A program made the position numbers and the translations under genes. The notes beneath the pieces were generated by a model. That model saw nothing but the letters and a program-made list of their open reading frames with translations. It did not search any database and was not told where the DNA came from. A stretch of DNA of 44,739 nt, taken from IMG/VR virus record IMGVR_UViG_2713896776_000002. The stretch is one strand, 5' to 3'. Source of the stretch: a virus (taxonomy: Duplodnaviria > Heunggongvirae > Uroviricota > Caudoviricetes). This document shows positions 36,989 to 40,931 of the stretch, piece after piece (the stretch's first letter is position 1; each line of letters opens with the position of its first letter).

Positions 36989-37125
36989 TTAGACATGAGA
37001 TAAATACAGGGTTATCCGTGAGATAATTGTGGGACTATGGGGGAAGATGTTGGAAAAGGTTGGATGGGAATTTGTAAAACAGTTTCCATATACGTAACGG
37101 GAGGGCACGCCTCCCGCGCAGTCAA

Positions 37126-37470
37126 TTATTTCTGGTCGTAAAGCCACCCCATCAAATTTTCAGCATATTTTTTTACTTCATCTGCTGACAACTTCTCGTC
37201 CGTTTTTAAAGAGAGCGAGGCAAGCTCCAGACAGCGAAGTTTCGTATCCACAATGTTAGCTGTTGCGCCGGGAGTATCGCTCCCTGCTATAAGTGACAGG
37301 CGGCGACGTTCAGCATAGCGATGCACTGATGATTTTGAAACCGGGTATCCCAACGAGTTTAACCACTCAGTAAGCTGAACGTAGCCGCTGAATGAACTTT
37401 CCGTCAGCTTTTTATTCAGTTTCTTCTTGATAGAGTCGGGTAACTGATTAACCGTCTGAGGTCGTGCCAT
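37126..37470 (-). CDS. HTH-type DNA-binding protein (DUF3486-like)
   Basis: 114 aa; ...SFSGYVQLTEWLNSLGYPVSKSSVHRYAERRR... pattern; opposite strand within the structural region. Confidence 0.4.
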   Translation of the reverse strand: MARPQTVNQLPDSIKKKLNKKLTESSFSGYVQLTEWLNSLGYPVSKSSVHRYAERRRLSLIAGSDTPGATANIVDTKLRCLELASLSLKTDEKLSADEVKKYAENLMGWLYDQK

Positions 37471-37659
37471 ATTGAGATTTACCTTACTTTGAATAGTCAG
37501 GTAAACATGTTTAATCAGAACGATGAAATTTGTTTCTAATGCGCTTTAATCATAACGACATGCCAGGATATCGCAGGAATTTAAGCCGTCAGTGCCACCT
37601 TAAATTTAGCCTTAACACTCAGCCAGCTTCAAAAATGAATGGCCGGTAGAGCGGCGAGG

Positions 37660-37704
37660 CAGACTTAAAATGTTAAAGGCCACCGGGGGTGAGCCGGTGG
37701 CCTT
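37660..37704 (-). terminator. Rho-independent terminator downstream of the minus-strand mini-ORF
   Basis: 11-bp perfect stem AAGGCCACCGG/CCGGTGGCCTT; on the minus strand followed by UUUAACAUUUUAAGUC. Confidence 0.5.
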
Positions 37705-37723
37705 ACTTACGTTTCCCGGTTGC

Positions 37724-37807
37724 TTACGGTAAGCAGGCCAGAATCAGCTCAATAAAGGCGACAATTGCCTTAAGAGCGATGACAGCGATTTGAAGAAATC
37801 CCTTCAT
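37724..37807 (-). CDS. 27-aa hydrophobic peptide, type I toxin-like (TisB/DinQ-like): MKGFLQIAVIALKAIVAFIELILACLP
   Basis: ATG with GGAG-containing RBS; single amphipathic helix with one Lys and one Glu; resembles TisB as recalled; terminator 20 nt downstream. Confidence 0.35.
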   Translation of the reverse strand: MKGFLQIAVIALKAIVAFIELILACLP

Positions 37808-37880
37808 CCGTTTGCTCCACTACAGGAGCGCGGCATCACCATTAAAGCCCTTCCACTGCCTGGTTAACGGTGTTGCATTG

Positions 37881-37912
37881 TTAGTGGATGCGTGACGCGC
37901 TCTGGTTGAGGC
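37881..37912. repeat. Left arm of a 32-bp perfect inverted repeat
   Basis: ttagtggatgcgtgacgcgctctggttgaggc; exact reverse complement at 38130-38161. Confidence 0.85.
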
Positions 37913-38052
37913 ACTGGAGCGGCACCACCCGTAATCCAGCCAGGGCTTGAACACGTTTCACATGCCTGCGTTGTGTCAGAACGGGACACCCACTAACGCT
38001 GTGATTATAAAGGCATCAGCAGTGTATTCAAAGGACTGGAGTAAATAACGGA

Positions 38053-38090
38053 CAAAAAAAGCCCGACTGGTGAGGTCAGGCTTTTTTCTT
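38053..38090. terminator. Bidirectional Rho-independent terminator between the inverted-repeat arms
   Basis: A7 - hairpin (gcccgac/gtcaggc, one mismatch) - T6. Confidence 0.5.
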
Positions 38091-38129
38091 TGGGTGCTTA
38101 AGGTGATGAATCTCTGTTCAAGGTAATGA

Positions 38130-38161
38130 GCCTCAACCAGAGCGCGTCACGCATCCACTAA
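38130..38161. repeat. Right arm of the 32-bp perfect inverted repeat
   Basis: gcctcaaccagagcgcgtcacgcatccactaa = reverse complement of 37881-37912. Confidence 0.85.
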
Positions 38162-38279
38162 CAGGGATAAGTGTACTAACTTGGAACAGATGATGCAAAC
38201 TTCATTAGCTTATTTAAGCCTCAGTAAGCATCTGAAAGCCTCATACCATACAGTCATACAGTGAAACGGATTTTAGTTC

Positions 38280-38421: not shown

Positions 38422-38450
38422 GCTGAGCGGTATACAATCCATTGATTTAA

Positions 38451-38795
38451 TTACTTTCTCAGATAATTTTCCCAATCAGGGAAAATTGTGGTCACATCAA
38501 ACTTTTTCTTCTCATATCTTGGCCCTCTTTTCTCTAGAATTTCATTTAATTCTTTCGGCATAATTATTTCTAAAATGGCATTTTGTATGTGCTGGCTAAG
38601 GTTCTTAGATGGGAGTTTTTCTGCGTTATCTTGCACATATTTACGAATCTGAGACTTAGCTTGGTCATACTGCTCTTTAGGTTTTGAGTGCAGTTTGGGT
38701 CTTTGTTCAACCAACCATGCACCAAGATAGTCGAAGAGCAAGTCATCTATCGATATGGTTGTTTTTTTGCCATTAAGAGTAACATGTATACGCAT
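38451..38795 (-). CDS. Hypothetical protein (AT-rich accessory gene)
   Basis: 114-aa ORF, co-directional with the RHH gene; no recognised motif. Confidence 0.4.
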   Translation of the reverse strand: MRIHVTLNGKKTTISIDDLLFDYLGAWLVEQRPKLHSKPKEQYDQAKSQIRKYVQDNAEKLPSKNLSQHIQNAILEIIMPKELNEILEKRGPRYEKKKFDVTTIFPDWENYLRK

Positions 38796-38932
38796 AAACT
38801 AGCCTCAAAGTGATAACATTTTATCATGTGCCGATGCGCTGTGAATGATAAATATTTATCACTATGATGTCGAATACAAGTGATAAATATTTATCAAAAA
38901 TACCTTAAGCTATTGTTTTTTAGTAACTAAAT

Positions 38933-39124
38933 TTAAGCCTTCGGGTCAATTCCGTTGCGCTTAAGCTCTGCTCTCCCAAGCTCTTTGAGCCAATTCCCTA
39001 AGCTAACACCTTCTTTTTTTGCTTGTGATTCAAACTGTTCTTTCAGTTCTGGTGAAATCCTGACATTGAACATCGGGGCTTTACCTGCCCCTTTAGGGCT
39101 TTTATCTCGCAAGATAGTTGACAT
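38933..39124 (-). CDS. Arc/MetJ-type ribbon-helix-helix DNA-binding protein
   Basis: PMFNVRISPELKEQFESQAKKEGVSLGNWLKEL matches the Arc-like RHH pattern (beta-strand then two helices); start codon uncertain (39124 or 39073). Confidence 0.5.
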   Translation of the reverse strand: MSTILRDKSPKGAGKAPMFNVRISPELKEQFESQAKKEGVSLGNWLKELGRAELKRNGIDPKA

Positions 39125-39125
39125 G

Positions 39126-39168
39126 TATAGACCTATAGCTTAGTGTTTGCTTATTAGGTCTATACCTT
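39126..39168. promoter_or_regulatory. Operator-like inverted repeats in the divergent promoter region (TATAGACC ... GGTCTATA)
   Basis: gtatagacctatag and ttaggtctatacc between the RHH gene and the divergent 39263 gene. Confidence 0.4.
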
Positions 39169-39262
39169 AACACAGGGAAAGGTCTAGAGAAACGGCCATA
39201 ACAAATGTTGCGAGCACTTGCTATGGCCTAACCAGTAAACCGTTATGCGTAGGATAACAGTC

Positions 39263-40006
39263 ATGGCTAATGATAAGTCTAACGATTCATTTGGAACAAA
39301 CCAAGAAAGTGTTTTATCTGCGGTGGTCAGTGGCGTGATTCACAGTTCTCACGCTAAAACGACATCGGAGGCCGAAGGCTTGGTTTCTTTGGGAAAGAAA
39401 ATATTTGCCTGTAAAGAGGAACTGCAACATGGTGAGTTTACGAACTTTCTTCACAGATGGCGCATAAACTTGCCCGATGCACGTAAAGCGATGCGAATCG
39501 CTCATGTGTTCGGCGGTGACACACCACGAGCCGCAATTGCCAAAACAGATATCGGCAAAACGAAGTTAAATCTGCTTGCCCGGCTGGATGAAGTGACACT
39601 GGATCTCCTTGCCAGTGGTGGGGCATATAACGACCACACGCTTGATGATATTCTTCGCATGAGCGCCAGAGAGTTGCAGCGCGTAATTCAATCTGGTGAA
39701 GATATTATTTGCGAAAGAACGCTAACCAATAAAGAGGATATCTCATCTTTGCCTGTTGAGGACGAGTTAGATAAAAAGGCAGGAATAAAACAATCAGGCC
39801 AAATCGAAGAGAATAAAAAGCAATATTGCCGCGAGTTACTCAAAGTGGCATTGCGTTATTCAGACGAAACCGAACTTAACGCAATAACAAAATTTATTGA
39901 ACATATGATTGCCTGTGCTCTGGCTGATAAATACAACCCCGGACTGAATGCTGCCAGTTATGAAGTTTATAATAAATTCGCTATTAGCCGGAGGGCTGCA
40001 CAATGA
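39263..40006 (+). CDS. Hypothetical protein
   Basis: ORF 39245-40006; ATG 39263 after AGGAT RBS; no recognised motif. Confidence 0.4.
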   Translation: MANDKSNDSFGTNQESVLSAVVSGVIHSSHAKTTSEAEGLVSLGKKIFACKEELQHGEFTNFLHRWRINLPDARKAMRIAHVFGGDTPRAAIAKTDIGKTKLNLLARLDEVTLDLLASGGAYNDHTLDDILRMSARELQRVIQSGEDIICERTLTNKEDISSLPVEDELDKKAGIKQSGQIEENKKQYCRELLKVALRYSDETELNAITKFIEHMIACALADKYNPGLNAASYEVYNKFAISRRAAQ

Positions 40007-40293
40007 AACAGGCTGAAACTCAAAATACTTTCCGTGCGATGCCGTCATTTTCACAAGGTGCCTCTGATGATATTATGTTTTTAAAGACTGATGCTAATCA
40101 GGAGTTAATTTACGACTCTGCCACCTACCGACTTGATGCAGTTCGTAAGCTACTTGATTTTGCGTCTACATTAGGTACGGATAAATCATGTGCATCCTCT
40201 GATGTTTCTATGGTTACGGATGCTGCTGGCATACTGGTTACTGATGCAATGGCGCTACTTGATGGATTGAGGAAAGACAGACGGCCTCAATAA
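40003..40293 (+). CDS. Hypothetical protein
   Basis: 96-aa ORF overlapping the upstream stop (ATGA). Confidence 0.35.
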   Translation: MKQAETQNTFRAMPSFSQGASDDIMFLKTDANQELIYDSATYRLDAVRKLLDFASTLGTDKSCASSDVSMVTDAAGILVTDAMALLDGLRKDRRPQ

Positions 40294-40532
40294 TCTGGCG
40301 TAATCCCGCGAAGCCCCTCCTCTGAGGGGCTTCTTCATATCTAAAGTACATTAAAAAACATCCCCGCCCACACCCGATATTATTAACTGACTTTAACAAG
40401 GTGCTGTAACGCTTTCTAAGCCGTCAGGCTGGTTTGCTGCGGTCAAGGTTCGCCTTTACCGCCAGTCGCACGCTGTAAAGCTTTATAAAGCCTTTTCTGA
40501 CTGAATTACTGATATTGCAACGGGTGATAGTC

Positions 40533-40889
40533 ATGACCAACAAACAAAAAATGCGTCAATCTGCCGAAGTGCTTAGTGATATGGCTACGCACATTTCCTG
40601 CCGCCTTGTCATGTACGGTGTCGATAAACGTCAGTCTGAATCTATCGCTGTAGACATCATGGCGTATCTGTCAGATGTATACGGCGGGCTTAACCTTTAC
40701 TTCCCAAAAGGAACAAAAGACCAGAATGAAGAGAAATATGATCTGGTTTTTGCAGACTTTAATGAAGGTATTCCCATCGCTGAAATAGCGAAAAAATACG
40801 GCTATTCCCTGCAATGGATTTACAACATTATCGCCCAAAAACGCCGTGAATACAGAAACAGCCTGAAAGATAGCGCTGCCAGACACTAA
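40533..40889 (+). CDS. Mor/C-family transcriptional activator (Mu Mor-like)
   Basis: ORF 40515-40889; C-terminal region LSDVYGGLNLYFPKGTK ... DFNEGIPIAEIAKKYGYSLQWIYNIIAQKRR fits the Mor-family pattern. Confidence 0.55.
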   Translation: MTNKQKMRQSAEVLSDMATHISCRLVMYGVDKRQSESIAVDIMAYLSDVYGGLNLYFPKGTKDQNEEKYDLVFADFNEGIPIAEIAKKYGYSLQWIYNIIAQKRREYRNSLKDSAARH

Positions 40890-40931
40890 GCAGCAAAGCA
40901 CTGTTTACACATCACAACCGAGAACAGGTAA

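What the first reader, a model, noticed from the sequence alone, without database searches (positions are those of the whole stretch)
36989..40931. 3.9-kb accessory and regulatory insert splitting the head-tail joining genes from the tail genes
Seen in sequence: after the gp10-like gene the co-directional structural gene string is interrupted by mixed-strand, partly AT-rich genes (DUF3486-like HTH, toxin-like mini-ORF, 114-aa ORF, RHH repressor, divergent 253-aa and 96-aa ORFs, Mor-like activator) before tail-type genes resume at 40932. No tail-terminator or clearly recognisable major-tail gene is seen. Established knowledge: Mor-family activators drive late or middle transcription in Mu-like phages. 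Inference: a mosaic junction in which the tail module is under separate Mor-like control, with cargo inserted at the module boundary.
Basis: partly seen in the sequence, partly recalled or inferred. Interest (0 to 1): 0.45.

Follow-up and report, generated by a model that had tools for sequence, protein, structure and literature searches.

The report
Transposase-less mini-Mu-like element inside a prophage
The "insert" is a self-contained 7.75-kb mobile element that jumped into a prophage structural gene; it has no transposase, shares its ends with BcepMu-like transposable phages, and looks like an undescribed kind of phage satellite.

Summary
There is a real insertion, but it is not a 3.9-kb cargo block at a module boundary. 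A discrete 7,754-bp element (window 36986-44739) sits inside the gp10/Neck1-like gene of an SfV-like prophage, flanked by a 6-bp target duplication (GGTGCA). It runs to the last base of the window. The "tail-type genes" from 40932 belong to the element, not the prophage. They are a scaffold-less capsid-maturation protease, an orphan helical partner and a tape-measure paralogue.

Elements 92-100% identical to it lie at 13 or more unrelated sites in E. coli and relatives, each with a perfect 6-bp duplication. The termini (TG...CA, two repeated boxes) match those of BcepMu-like transposable prophages, which also make 6-bp duplications. The element has no transposase.

Its genes are 28-47% identical to helper homologues and under purifying selection (dN/dS 0.06-0.27). 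Gene order is kept at 33-52% amino-acid identity in Pectobacterium. A Mor, short protease and partner module recurs in other ~8-kb Mu-like elements, and the partner is absent from 50,697 deposited phage genomes.

Best reading: a non-autonomous satellite of transposable phages, moved by the helper's transposase. Packaging and capsid remodelling are inferred, not shown.

The parts
36617..36988 (+). Truncated gp10-like / Neck1 (tail-completion) gene of the SfV-like host prophage; only codons 1-123 of 168 remain, and the stop codon TGA is supplied by the element's first three bases
   Evidence: phrog_879 2.4e-69, profile positions 1-123 of 168. Phage homology stops at 36986. Joining the L008 right flank restores the full ORF. 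The intact 168-aa gene is present in vB_EcoM-720R4.
36980..36985 (.). Left copy of the 6-bp target-site duplication, GGTGCA; the right copy lies just beyond the window end
   Evidence: The L008 right junction reads ...GGATCA|GGTGCATCCGG. The flanks overlap by exactly 6 bp on phage vB_EcoM-720R4.
36986..37075 (+). Left end of the element: 5'-TG terminus, a GATAAAT box (36999-37005) and a CGTGAGATAA box (37016-37025) spaced about 22 bp apart; putative transposase-binding sites and a possible pac region
   Evidence: Imperfect inverted repeat with the right end (I2). The same boxes occur in the ends of BcepMu-like prophages in AW1.7 and L006.
37126..37470 (-). 114-aa protein carrying only the N-terminal HTH domain of the Mu gp27/DUF3486 putative small terminase
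   Evidence: PF11985 3.6e-14, profile 1-50 of 173. phrog_426 terminase small subunit 1.2e-14. 45% identical to residues 1-55 of the helper's 181-aa DUF3486 protein. dN/dS 0.11-0.25.
37676..38163 (-). Candidate type I toxin-antitoxin module: 27-aa hydrophobic ORF (37724-37807), terminator (37676-37704), and a 34-nt perfect inverted repeat (37879-37912 and 38130-38163) that would pair the toxin 5'UTR with an upstream tandem small RNA ending at the terminator near 38050-38090
   Evidence: Sequence read directly. Inverted repeat I1. The peptide is conserved in five variants, with only V16I differing. No Rfam or NCBIfam match. The function is inferred.
38451..38795 (-). 114-aa ORF of unknown function in an AT-rich stretch; a variable accessory gene, replaced in some variants
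   Evidence: No Pfam, PHROG, PADLOC or NCBIfam hit. Absent from L003 and L009. dN/dS 0.06 against L002.
38811..38896 (.). Three 16-nt palindromes (TGATAAATATTTATCA and a variant) spaced 35 bp apart, overlapping promoter-like sites upstream of the 114-aa ORF; operator-like, with a half-site resembling the GATAAAT box of the ends
   Evidence: Repeat family D3 and inverted repeat I4. Promoter-like hits at 38873-38818 on the minus strand.
38933..39124 (-). 63-aa ribbon-helix-helix protein (HicB/Arc-like), the candidate repressor of the element; transcribed divergently from the DUF3102 operon
   Evidence: PF05534 3.5e-06. phrog_228 Arc-like repressor 1.1e-06. dN/dS 0.03-0.23.
39263..40006 (+). DUF3102 protein (247 aa from the RefSeq start; the ORF opens at 39245); a diverged paralogue of the helper gene that sits just upstream of the helper transposase
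   Evidence: PF11300 3.2e-05. phrog_1748 2.3e-23. 31% identical to the helper's 302-aa DUF3102 protein. RefSeq start.
40003..40293 (+). 96-aa ORF of unknown function, always paired with the DUF3102 gene
   Evidence: Present in every variant, including Pectobacterium at 36% identity. No family match.
40533..40889 (+). Mor-family transcription activator (118 aa from the annotated ATG)
   Evidence: PF08765 1.7e-21. phrog_532 late transcriptional activator 4.7e-22. 28% identical to the helper Mor. dN/dS about 0.1.
40932..41546 (+). 204-aa scaffold-less capsid-maturation protease: assemblin/T4 gp21 fold, conserved His58-Ser102-His124, and the helper-like C-terminal [LIV]S[YF]xEA helix, but without the central segment of about 100-200 residues found in the helper's 365-aa protease-scaffold
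41548..42141 (+). 197-aa all-helical partner protein with long N- and C-terminal helices; an orphan family that always accompanies the short protease. Proposed detached or alternative scaffold (inference)
   Evidence: No annotation. AlphaFold pLDDT 75. No match in the BFVD viral-structure library. Homologous to the partners in the Salmonella, Logan and JGI elements. 142 clusters at 50% identity. No homologue in 50,697 phage genomes. dN/dS 0.09-0.16.
42174..44651 (+). 825-aa tape-measure protein, a full-length paralogue of the helper's 821-aa tape measure
   Evidence: PF10145 4e-19. phrog_28 5.7e-121. 46.5% identical to the helper tape measure over 817 residues. dN/dS 0.08-0.15.
44657..44739 (+). 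Right end of the element: about 83 bp similar to the helper's right end, with inverted copies of the two boxes and a ...CA-3' terminus that coincides with the last base of the window
   Evidence: (I2).

Best explanation
Window 36986-44739 is one complete copy of a 7,754-bp non-autonomous transposable element. It is derived from, and dependent on, BcepMu-like transposable phages. It transposed into the gp10/Neck1-like gene of an SfV-like prophage and so probably disabled that prophage.

Shown by sequence:
- Exact ends (TG...CA).
- Two repeated terminal boxes shared with BcepMu-like prophages.
- A 6-bp target duplication at this site and at every other site examined.
- No transposase gene.
- Nine conserved genes under purifying selection.

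Inferred mechanism:
1. When a BcepMu-like helper is induced or infects the cell, its Tn552-type DDE transposase and AAA+ partner bind the element's ends. They replicate and transpose the element as they do the phage.
2. The element's ribbon-helix-helix repressor is relieved, and its Mor homologue switches on its late operon.
3. That operon makes a capsid-maturation protease that keeps the helper-like C-terminal motif but lacks the scaffold segment. It also makes an orphan helical partner, proposed to be a detached scaffold, and a tape-measure paralogue of helper length.
4. These products enter or redirect the helper's head and tail assembly, possibly into smaller heads suited to about 8 kb.
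5. The shared left end, together with the gp27-like HTH protein, lets the helper terminase package the element by headful with flanking host DNA.

In short, it behaves as a phage satellite whose integration and replication step is borrowed Mu-style transposition rather than an integrase.
For: Boundaries and mobility:
- Phage homology stops at 36986.
- The element is 100% identical over 7,753 of its 7,754 bases in E. coli AW1.7, where it sits in a different place, inside a lambdoid major capsid gene.
- Thirteen loci, representing 12 distinct sites, all have perfect 6-bp duplications. Further examples are L030, two Erwinia copies and one Pectobacterium copy.
- The L008 right flank restores the gp10-like ORF and is colinear with phage vB_EcoM-720R4.

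Helper relationship:
- AW1.7 carries a 34-kb BcepMu-like prophage in adiA with the same terminal boxes and a 6-bp duplication, GTAGCT.
- That prophage has a DDE (rve) transposase and an AAA_22 ATPase.
- TG...CA termini and Tn552-related transposases are stated characteristics of BcepMu-like prophages (PMC2628397).

Not a recent deletion derivative:
- Only the ends and parts of the tape-measure gene match the helper at DNA level, at 70-78%.
- The proteins are 28-47% identical to helper homologues.
- dN/dS is 0.06-0.27 for all genes.
- Full gene order is kept at 33-52% amino-acid identity in Pectobacterium, without a transposase.

Hijack module:
- The protease fold and the His/Ser/His residues are conserved, the scaffold segment is missing and the C-terminal motif is kept.
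- The Mor, short protease and partner arrangement recurs in a Salmonella 7,828-bp element with its own MuA/MuB, and in metagenomic elements.
- The partner family has 142 clusters at 50% identity and is absent from 50,697 phage genomes.
Against: - No experiment or virome read shows that the element is packaged, or that it is mobilised by a BcepMu-like phage.
- Co-residence with a helper is not the rule. Of five independent complete-genome lineages carrying the element, only AW1.7 shows a BcepMu-like tape measure elsewhere in the genome.
- A transposase-less element arriving in a naive cell has no obvious way to integrate, unless there is co-infection or homologous recombination of the flanks packaged with it.
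- The partner protein has no detectable similarity to the helper scaffold and no fold match. Its scaffold role is conjecture.
- A tape measure of unchanged length has no obvious benefit.
- The roles of DUF3102, the 96-aa ORF and the 114-aa ORF are unknown.
Confidence: 0.6

Rival explanations
1. It is a passive deletion remnant. A defective, internally deleted BcepMu-like prophage kept both ends and is occasionally moved in trans. Its remaining genes are leftovers with no role in exploiting a helper.
For: All recognisable genes have homologues in BcepMu-like phages: the gp27 HTH, DUF3102, Mor, the protease and the tape measure. The ends are helper-like. The current view is that non-autonomous elements usually arise by deletion (PMC11389934).
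Against: - dN/dS is 0.06-0.27 in every gene.
- Divergence from the helper is 53-72% at protein level, yet all ORFs are intact.
- The same nine-gene order is retained at 33-52% identity in Pectobacterium.
- The partner gene has no helper or phage homologue.
- The same protease truncation, with the C-terminal motif kept, recurs in elements that use a different transposase family.
Confidence: 0.15
2. It is an anti-phage hitcher. The element's main role is to protect its host by sabotaging BcepMu-like phage assembly, using a decoy protease, a decoy tape measure and a decoy small-terminase HTH. It spreads only by in-cell transposition and ordinary horizontal transfer, not in virions.
For: It encodes diverged copies of exactly those helper proteins whose incorporation could poison head assembly, tail assembly and packaging. 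Most carriers lack a resident helper, as expected if the element guards against incoming phage. A prophage protein that blocks tail assembly of invading phages has been described (PMC10884400, listed).
Against: No PADLOC match. Copies 100% identical over 7,753 bases lie at different sites in different strains, which argues for efficient intercellular spread. Size is tightly kept at about 7.7-7.8 kb in two transposase families, which hints at a packaging constraint. Interference and satellite transfer are not mutually exclusive.
Confidence: 0.2
3. One reading: a mosaic junction of the SfV-like prophage, in which accessory cargo sits between the head-tail joining genes and a Mor-controlled tail module.
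For: Mixed-strand, lower-GC genes follow the gp10-like gene, and a Mor gene precedes a tape-measure gene.
Against: - The gp10-like gene is cut at codon 123 of 168.
- A 6-bp duplication flanks a 7,754-bp unit that includes the 'tail' genes.
- The same unit lies in unrelated chromosomal genes elsewhere.
- Intact relatives have their own Mu-type tail genes directly after gp10.
- The gene at 40932 is a head protease, not a tail gene.
Confidence: 0.02
4. It is an assembly chimera: the junction at 36986 is a mis-join of two unrelated regions.
For: The window stops exactly at the element's last base, which is typical of an assembly break at a repeat.
Against: An independent contig (IMG/VR UViG 2713896776_000007, L008) spans the right junction. 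It shows the matching 6-bp duplication and colinear prophage tail genes. Thirteen other loci, representing 12 distinct sites, show the same precise ends.
Confidence: 0.02

Closest known systems
BcepMu-like transposable phages (BcepMu, phiE255, Escherichia phage PhiKM, Phi06_2974 B, Klebsiella phage KP12, and the AW1.7 adiA prophage)
   Same: TG...CA termini, the same two terminal boxes, and a 6-bp target duplication. It has homologous Mor, gp27-type HTH, DUF3102, protease and tape-measure genes (PMC2628397).
   Different: It is 7.75 kb, against about 34-37 kb. It has no DDE transposase, no AAA+ transposition ATPase and no terminase, portal, capsid, sheath, tube, baseplate or lysis genes. Its protease lacks the scaffold segment, it has an extra orphan partner gene, and its proteins are only 28-47% identical.
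Laboratory mini-Mu derivatives (own knowledge)
   Same: Both are Mu-type ends without a transposase. Mini-Mu is transposed and packaged only when a helper supplies the A and B proteins and the heads, and headful packaging then carries flanking host DNA.
   Different: Mini-Mu elements are engineered deletions of Mu itself. This is a natural, diverged lineage under purifying selection with its own regulatory and morphogenetic genes, tied to the Tn552-type (BcepMu) transposase rather than to MuA.
Capsid-redirecting phage satellites (P4, SaPIs/PICIs, PLE)
   Same: It is a small element lacking most virion genes. It encodes proteins aimed at the helper's head assembly. Retaining the helper-like C-terminal motif on a shortened protein parallels SaPI1 CpmB, which shares the C-terminus of the helper scaffold (own knowledge; review PMC6893505, listed).
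   Different: It has no integrase or att site, no primase or replicon, and no excision. Movement is by transposition to random sites with a 6-bp duplication. It carries a tape-measure gene. Packaging and size redirection have not been demonstrated.
MITEs and other non-autonomous transposons
   Same: It relies on a transposase encoded elsewhere that recognises shared terminal repeats (PMC11389934).
   Different: It is 7.75 kb with nine or more selected protein genes, including virion-assembly homologues. A MITE is a non-coding element of about 300 nt.
Salmonella 7,828-bp Mu-type mini-element (L021-L023) and metagenomic relatives (L024-L028, L039, L041)
   Same: The Mor, short protease and homologous partner module is shared. 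The size is about 7-9 kb, and copies lie at multiple insertion sites.
   Different: The Salmonella element carries its own MuA-type transposase, MuB, GemA and Gam, makes 5-bp duplications and has no tape measure. The Logan elements carry a lambda-type tape measure and a tail-completion gene.

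Membership tests
Mu/BcepMu-type transposable element | 5'-TG...CA-3' termini | tested here: met
   TGATTAGAC...GGTGGATCA. Stated as characteristic of BcepMu-like prophages in PMC2628397.
Mu/BcepMu-type transposable element | Terminal inverted repeats with repeated transposase-binding boxes shared with an autonomous relative | tested here: met
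   GATAAAT and CGTGAGATAA boxes lie at the same positions in both ends of the element and of the AW1.7 and L006 BcepMu-like prophages. Actual binding is not testable here.
Mu/BcepMu-type transposable element | Fixed-length target-site duplication at unrelated insertion sites | tested here: met
   Perfect 6-bp duplications at 13 of 13 loci (12 distinct sites), plus L030, L035, L036 and L037. The helper prophage also makes a 6-bp duplication, GTAGCT.
Mu/BcepMu-type transposable element (autonomous) | Encodes its own DDE transposase and AAA+ target-capture ATPase | tested here: not met
   No rve or DDE domain and no AAA+ ATPase in any ORF of 36986-44739. Helper transposase and ATPase queries give no tblastn hit in related copies. 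The element is therefore non-autonomous.
Phage satellite (general) | Lacks most virion, lysis and replication genes and so depends on a helper phage | tested here: met
   Only a protease domain, the partner and a tape measure are virion-related. There is no capsid, portal, terminase, sheath, tube or lysis gene.
Phage satellite (general) | DNA is packaged in helper-derived particles and transferred | not testable with these tools
   Only indirect hints exist: the shared left end, a tightly kept size, copies 100% identical over 7,753 bases at different sites in different strains, and a metagenome contig consistent with insertion polymorphism.
Phage satellite (general) | Association with a specific helper | tested here: inconclusive
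   The ends match BcepMu-like phages, and AW1.7 carries both the element and a helper. Four other complete-genome lineages show no BcepMu-like tape measure. BcepMu-like tape-measure sequences (the element's own copies included) occur in 647 of 5,426 genomes.
Known satellite families (P4-like, PICI, cfPICI, PLE) | Integrase with a site-specific att site, plus a primase or replication module | tested here: not met
   No integrase or primase domains. Insertion sites are random.
Mor/C transcription activator family | Match to PF08765 above the gathering score | tested here: met
   76.6 bits against a cut-off of 24.9, E 1.7e-21.
Assemblin / HK97 / T4 gp21-type capsid-maturation protease | Characteristic fold with conserved catalytic Ser and His residues | tested here: met
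Phage tape-measure protein | PF10145 or TMP profile match and full-length similarity to a bona fide tail tape measure | tested here: met
   PF10145 69.7 bits against a cut-off of 33.2. phrog_28 5.7e-121. 46.5% identical over 817 residues to the helper's tape measure, which sits between the helper's tail-assembly and baseplate genes.
Type I toxin-antitoxin | Small hydrophobic toxin ORF plus an antisense RNA that pairs with its mRNA | tested here: inconclusive
   A 27-aa hydrophobic ORF with a Shine-Dalgarno sequence and a terminator, and a 34-nt perfect complementarity to an upstream terminator-ended stretch, conserved in five variants. No Rfam or NCBIfam family match.
   The insert interrupts the gp10-like gene, and the downstream 'tail' genes belong to the insert.

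The most novel reading that the evidence does not exclude
This element is one member of a previously unrecognised class of satellites of transposable (Mu-like and BcepMu-like) phages. They are elements of about 7.7-9 kb that integrate and replicate by Mu-style transposition, either borrowing the helper's transposase (this family) or carrying a minimal MuA/MuB set (the Salmonella family). A Mor, scaffold-less protease and orphan helical partner module defines them and takes over the helper's capsid assembly, possibly to build small heads. The class is widespread in Proteobacteria, with 142 partner-protein clusters at 50% identity.
Probability: 0.45. Interest if true: 0.85.

Novelty: new variant of a known kind. 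Interest (0 to 1): 0.7.

Why it matters
All well-studied phage satellites (P4, PICI/SaPI, cfPICI, PLE) integrate site-specifically with an integrase. They parasitise phages that package from cos or pac sites on excised, replicated genomes. No satellite of transposable phages turned up in the literature searched here.

A natural, transposase-less Mu-type element with its own morphogenetic genes would have several consequences:
- It would extend satellite biology to replicative transposition.
- It would give a natural counterpart of laboratory mini-Mu, including possible transduction of flanking host DNA.
- It would provide a compact three-gene module (Mor, short protease, partner) for studying how a protease or scaffold variant redirects capsid assembly.
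- It would explain a class of "hypothetical / Mor / tape measure" islands that annotation pipelines now score as prophage fragments. One example is the remnant that appears fixed next to a tRNA-Ser gene in 23 of 5,426 complete E. coli genomes, ST131-type strains among them.

For this window, it means the SfV-like prophage is probably crippled by the insertion rather than specially regulated.

Tried and rejected
- Defence system: the PADLOC scan of all nine proteins gave nothing meaningful.
- Known non-coding RNAs: the Rfam scan gave only sub-threshold terminator-like hits.
- Partner protein function: no Pfam, NCBIfam or PADLOC family. There was no match in the BFVD viral-structure library and no blastp similarity to the helper scaffold region. 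tblastn of two partner homologues against 50,697 phage genomes found nothing.
- Preference for phage genes: rejected. It was suggested by the first two sites, both in prophage structural genes, but ten further sites are ordinary chromosomal genes or intergenic DNA with no target consensus.
- Recent deletion of the co-resident AW1.7 helper: rejected, because only the ends and parts of the tape-measure gene match, at 70-78% DNA identity.
- Obligate co-residence with a helper: not supported.
- Literature: six full-text searches and five papers searched for key terms gave no description of satellites of transposable phages. The library lacks most subscription journals, and one relevant paper (PMC10284936) could not be opened.
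- Third fold search, third homologue search and plasmid collection: not used.

Full report
**Observation**

The window from 32570 to 36988 is a co-directional HK97-type head and connector string: portal, protease, major capsid, adaptor, head closure and a gp10/Neck1-like gene. Its DNA is 91-99% identical to phages vB_EcoM-720R4, SfI, SfII and SfV up to window 36986. There the similarity stops dead.

The gp10-like ORF matches only positions 1-123 of a 168-position profile (phrog_879). Its stop codon, TGA at 36986-36988, is the first three bases of the foreign DNA.

GC falls to 0.36-0.50 over 37001-41000.

**True extent**

From 36986 to the last base of the window (44739) the sequence is 100% identical over 7,753 of its 7,754 bases to a stretch of E. 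coli AW1.7. There it lies somewhere quite different, splitting the major capsid gene of a lambdoid Qin-like prophage.

The unit begins TGATTAGACATGAGATAAAT and ends ATTTATCGCGCGGTGGATCA. Its two ends form an imperfect inverted repeat. Each carries a GATAAAT box and a CGTGAGATAA box about 22 bp apart.

An independent contig (L008, IMG/VR UViG 2713896776_000007) carries the right junction of the very insertion seen in the window. After ...GGATCA comes GGTGCA, the six bases that precede the element in the window. The flank then restores the full gp10-like reading frame. It continues colinearly, at 98% identity, with the tail genes of vB_EcoM-720R4, overlapping the left flank by exactly 6 bp.

In that intact phage the 168-aa gene is followed directly by Mup38, sheath, tube, a 633-aa tape measure and the N protein. 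None of the element's ORFs is present. The insert is therefore 7,754 bp, not 3.9 kb, and the genes from 40932 onward belong to it.

**Mobility**

The same nine-gene unit, 92-100% identical, lies at other sites:
- in a PTS gene;
- between sbmC and dacD;
- in ynfE/F-like and dmsC-region genes;
- near a patatin-family gene, a LysR-family regulator gene and other chromosomal genes;
- inside a cfPICI/P4-like island.

All 13 loci examined, which represent 12 distinct sites, have perfect 6-bp duplications with no consensus. More diverged copies do too: one 7,796-bp copy in a metagenome contig, two in Erwinia tracheiphila and one in Pectobacterium colocasium. The two prophage-gene insertions are thus chance hits of a randomly inserting element.

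It is uncommon. It occurs in 33 of 5,426 complete E. coli genomes, and 23 of those carry a truncated remnant at one site.

**Source of the transposition machinery**

No ORF in the element has a transposase, integrase or AAA+ domain. Scanning viral contigs for the terminal boxes found a 37.5-kb contig (L006) with the same left end. Behind that end lie a gp27-like gene, Mor, an ExeA-type ATPase and a DDE transposase.

AW1.7 itself carries such a prophage in adiA. It is 34 kb with helper-type ends, a 6-bp duplication (GTAGCT), an rve-type transposase, an AAA_22 ATPase and a complete head, tail and lysis gene set. Its deposited relatives are Escherichia phages PhiKM and Phi06_2974 B and Klebsiella phage KP12. 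The protease links the group to BcepMu and phiE255.

TG...CA ends and Tn552-related transposases are described traits of BcepMu-like prophages (PMC2628397). The parsimonious reading is that BcepMu-like phages supply the transposase in trans. This is inference from shared ends and duplication length.

**Not a fresh deletion**

Against the AW1.7 helper, only about 90 bp at each end and two pieces of the tape-measure gene align, at 70-78%. Protein identities to the helper:

| Element protein | Identity to helper homologue |
|---|---|
| gp27 HTH (N-terminal 55 residues only) | 45% |
| DUF3102 | 31% |
| Mor | 28% |
| Protease domain | 46% |
| Tape measure (825 vs 821 aa, full length) | 46.5% |

Between element variants every gene shows purifying selection:

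| Gene | dN/dS |
|---|---|
| Protease | 0.075-0.13 |
| Partner | 0.09-0.16 |
| Tape measure | 0.08-0.15 |
| Mor | about 0.1 |
| gp27 HTH | 0.11-0.25 |
| DUF3102 | 0.16-0.27 |

The Pectobacterium copy keeps the whole order at 33-52% amino-acid identity, still without a transposase: RHH, then divergently DUF3102, the 96-aa ORF, Mor, the protease, the partner and the tape measure. The left half is modular. Alleles of the gp27 HTH, the 114-aa ORF, RHH, DUF3102 and Mor are swapped between variants, while the right half is the conserved core.

**The protease and partner module**

In an alignment of 46 short and long homologues, H58, S102 and H124 are invariant. The GHP, VSASF and LRHxGFLGAQPPAVKG motifs are conserved. 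Long forms of 290-365 aa, including the helper's, carry a central segment of 100-200 residues. Short forms of 180-221 aa lack that segment, yet keep the C-terminal [LIV]S[YF]xEA helix that long forms also end with. In Mu, the C-terminal part of the protease gene product is the scaffold (own knowledge).

The next gene encodes a 197-aa all-helical protein with no family or fold match. Homologues of it follow short proteases in other small Mu-type elements:
- A 7,828-bp Salmonella element with its own MuA/MuB, GemA, Mor and Gam sits at three sites. Two of the three show a 5-bp duplication.
- Metagenomic contigs of 7-8.8 kb carry a 969-aa tape measure, Mor, the short protease, the partner and a tail-completion gene.
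- Three further metagenome contigs show the same arrangement.

The partners are mutually homologous. The family has 142 clusters at 50% identity. It has no tblastn match in 50,697 deposited phage genomes. One 2-kb contig has short protease, major capsid protein, then partner.

I therefore propose that the partner is a detached or alternative scaffold, and that the pair re-programs the helper's capsid assembly. The near-constant size of about 7.7-7.8 kb in two transposase families is compatible with a small-head packaging limit. All of this is inference.

**Other features of the element**

- A candidate type I toxin-antitoxin module spans 37676-38163. It comprises a 27-aa hydrophobic ORF, a 34-nt perfect complementarity to an upstream terminator-ended stretch, and near-invariance across variants.
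- Three operator-like palindromes lie at 38811-38896, over the promoter of the 114-aa ORF.
- A ribbon-helix-helix gene is transcribed divergently from the DUF3102 operon.

**Weak points**

- Packaging, helper dependence and capsid remodelling are untested.
- Only one of five complete-genome lineages that carry the element also shows a BcepMu-like tape measure.
- How a transposase-less element establishes itself in a naive cell is unexplained. Co-infection, or recombination of co-packaged flanks as in mini-Mu transduction, are possibilities (own knowledge).
- The purpose of a tape measure of the same length as the helper's is unclear.

**Comparison and novelty**

The element works like a laboratory mini-Mu and like a capsid-redirecting satellite. 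It fails the membership tests of the P4, PICI, cfPICI and PLE families, because it has no integrase and no replicon. It also fails the test for an autonomous transposable phage.

Six full-text searches, and five papers searched for key terms, found no description of satellites of transposable phages. One of those papers was a 2024 review of helper-dependent elements. The library is incomplete, so prior description cannot be excluded.

I rate it a new variant of a known kind, with a substantial chance that it marks a new satellite class.

Noticed in passing
window 44739 (end of window): The window ends on the exact last base (...GGATCA) of the inserted element. A cut at that exact base is unlikely to be chance, so this is probably a contig end. 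That would suggest the source assembly broke at the element boundary, as happens when an element is multi-copy or has variable flanks.
   Followed up: partly
window 37676-38163, minus strand: Candidate type I toxin-antitoxin module: a 27-aa hydrophobic ORF (MKGFLQIAVIALKAIVAFIELILACLP) with a Shine-Dalgarno sequence and a terminator. A 34-nt perfect inverted repeat would pair its 5'UTR with an upstream small RNA. The region is about 95% conserved across variants, and no Rfam family matches.
   Followed up: partly
window 38811-38896: Three copies of the palindrome TGATAAATATTTATCA, spaced 35 bp apart, lie over promoter-like sites for the 114-aa ORF. The half-site resembles the GATAAAT box in the element's ends, which is reminiscent of the operator/enhancer overlap in Mu.
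   Followed up: no
L021-L023 (Salmonella enterica contigs), locus coordinates about 3586-11413: A 7,828-bp element is 100% identical at three different chromosomal sites. It carries a repressor, a MuA-type transposase, MuB, GemA, Mor, Gam, a 221-aa short protease and a 201-aa partner, and no other virion genes. Two of the three sites show a 5-bp duplication. It looks like an autonomous counterpart of the E. coli element.
   Followed up: partly
L024-L027 (Logan metagenome contigs, 3-8.8 kb): Small contigs encode a 969-aa lambda-type tape measure, Mor, an HTH protein, a 180-aa short protease, a 200-aa partner, a tail-completion protein (Phage_tail_S) and a MuA-N-terminal-like HTH protein. No transposase was called. 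This is a second lineage that pairs the module with a tape measure.
   Followed up: no
L004 (E. coli ZH063, locus 13897-18284) and 22 other complete genomes: A truncated relative of the element sits between infA and clpA, next to a tRNA-Ser gene, in ST131-type strains. It has RHH, a shorter DUF3102, Mor, the protease, the partner and the right end, but no tape measure, and its left part is replaced by IS5. Its protease cluster (P0044) is seen on 996 contigs.
   Followed up: partly
L019 (E. coli GCA_030897045.1), locus 5439-13192: One copy of the element is inserted inside a P4/cfPICI-like island that has a capsid gene, a D5-type primase, AlpA and an integrase. This is a putative satellite nested within another satellite-like element.
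   Followed up: no
L035 and L036 (Erwinia tracheiphila ICMP 5845): A single genome holds two different copies: 7,824 bp (duplication ACAGCC) and 9,607 bp (duplication ATATGT). The IMG/VR contig L009 shows the same insertion as L035.
   Followed up: partly
window 1-15862: Upstream of the prophage lies a stack of other mobile or defence DNA. It comprises a type I restriction-modification system, hsdM/S/R (47-6199), and a small integrase island with YfjJ-like and DUF3987 genes (6801-11652). It also has a Dam-type methylase plus an AAA_15/AAA_21 ATPase (11925-14688), next to the prophage integrase (14696-15862).
   Followed up: partly
L006 249-575 and L011 5622-5948: Some BcepMu-like helpers carry a 108-aa gp27-HTH gene right at their left end, in the same position and orientation as in the element. 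Some element variants carry a 108-aa allele. Its left end, about 470 bp, is 75% identical to that helper type, which suggests exchange of left-end cassettes between helper and element.
   Followed up: partly
P0114 (library protein, 4,900 aa): A 4,900-residue protein matches residues 16-71 of the partner profile in 21 separate stretches. It may be a repeat protein built from the partner's N-terminal helix, or a coiled-coil artefact.
   Followed up: no
P0070 and P0076 in alignment A1: Some long protease homologues carry three or four tandem copies of the VSYxEAL-type motif at their N-terminus, ahead of the protease domain. This suggests the C-terminal motif is a portable binding peptide.
   Followed up: no
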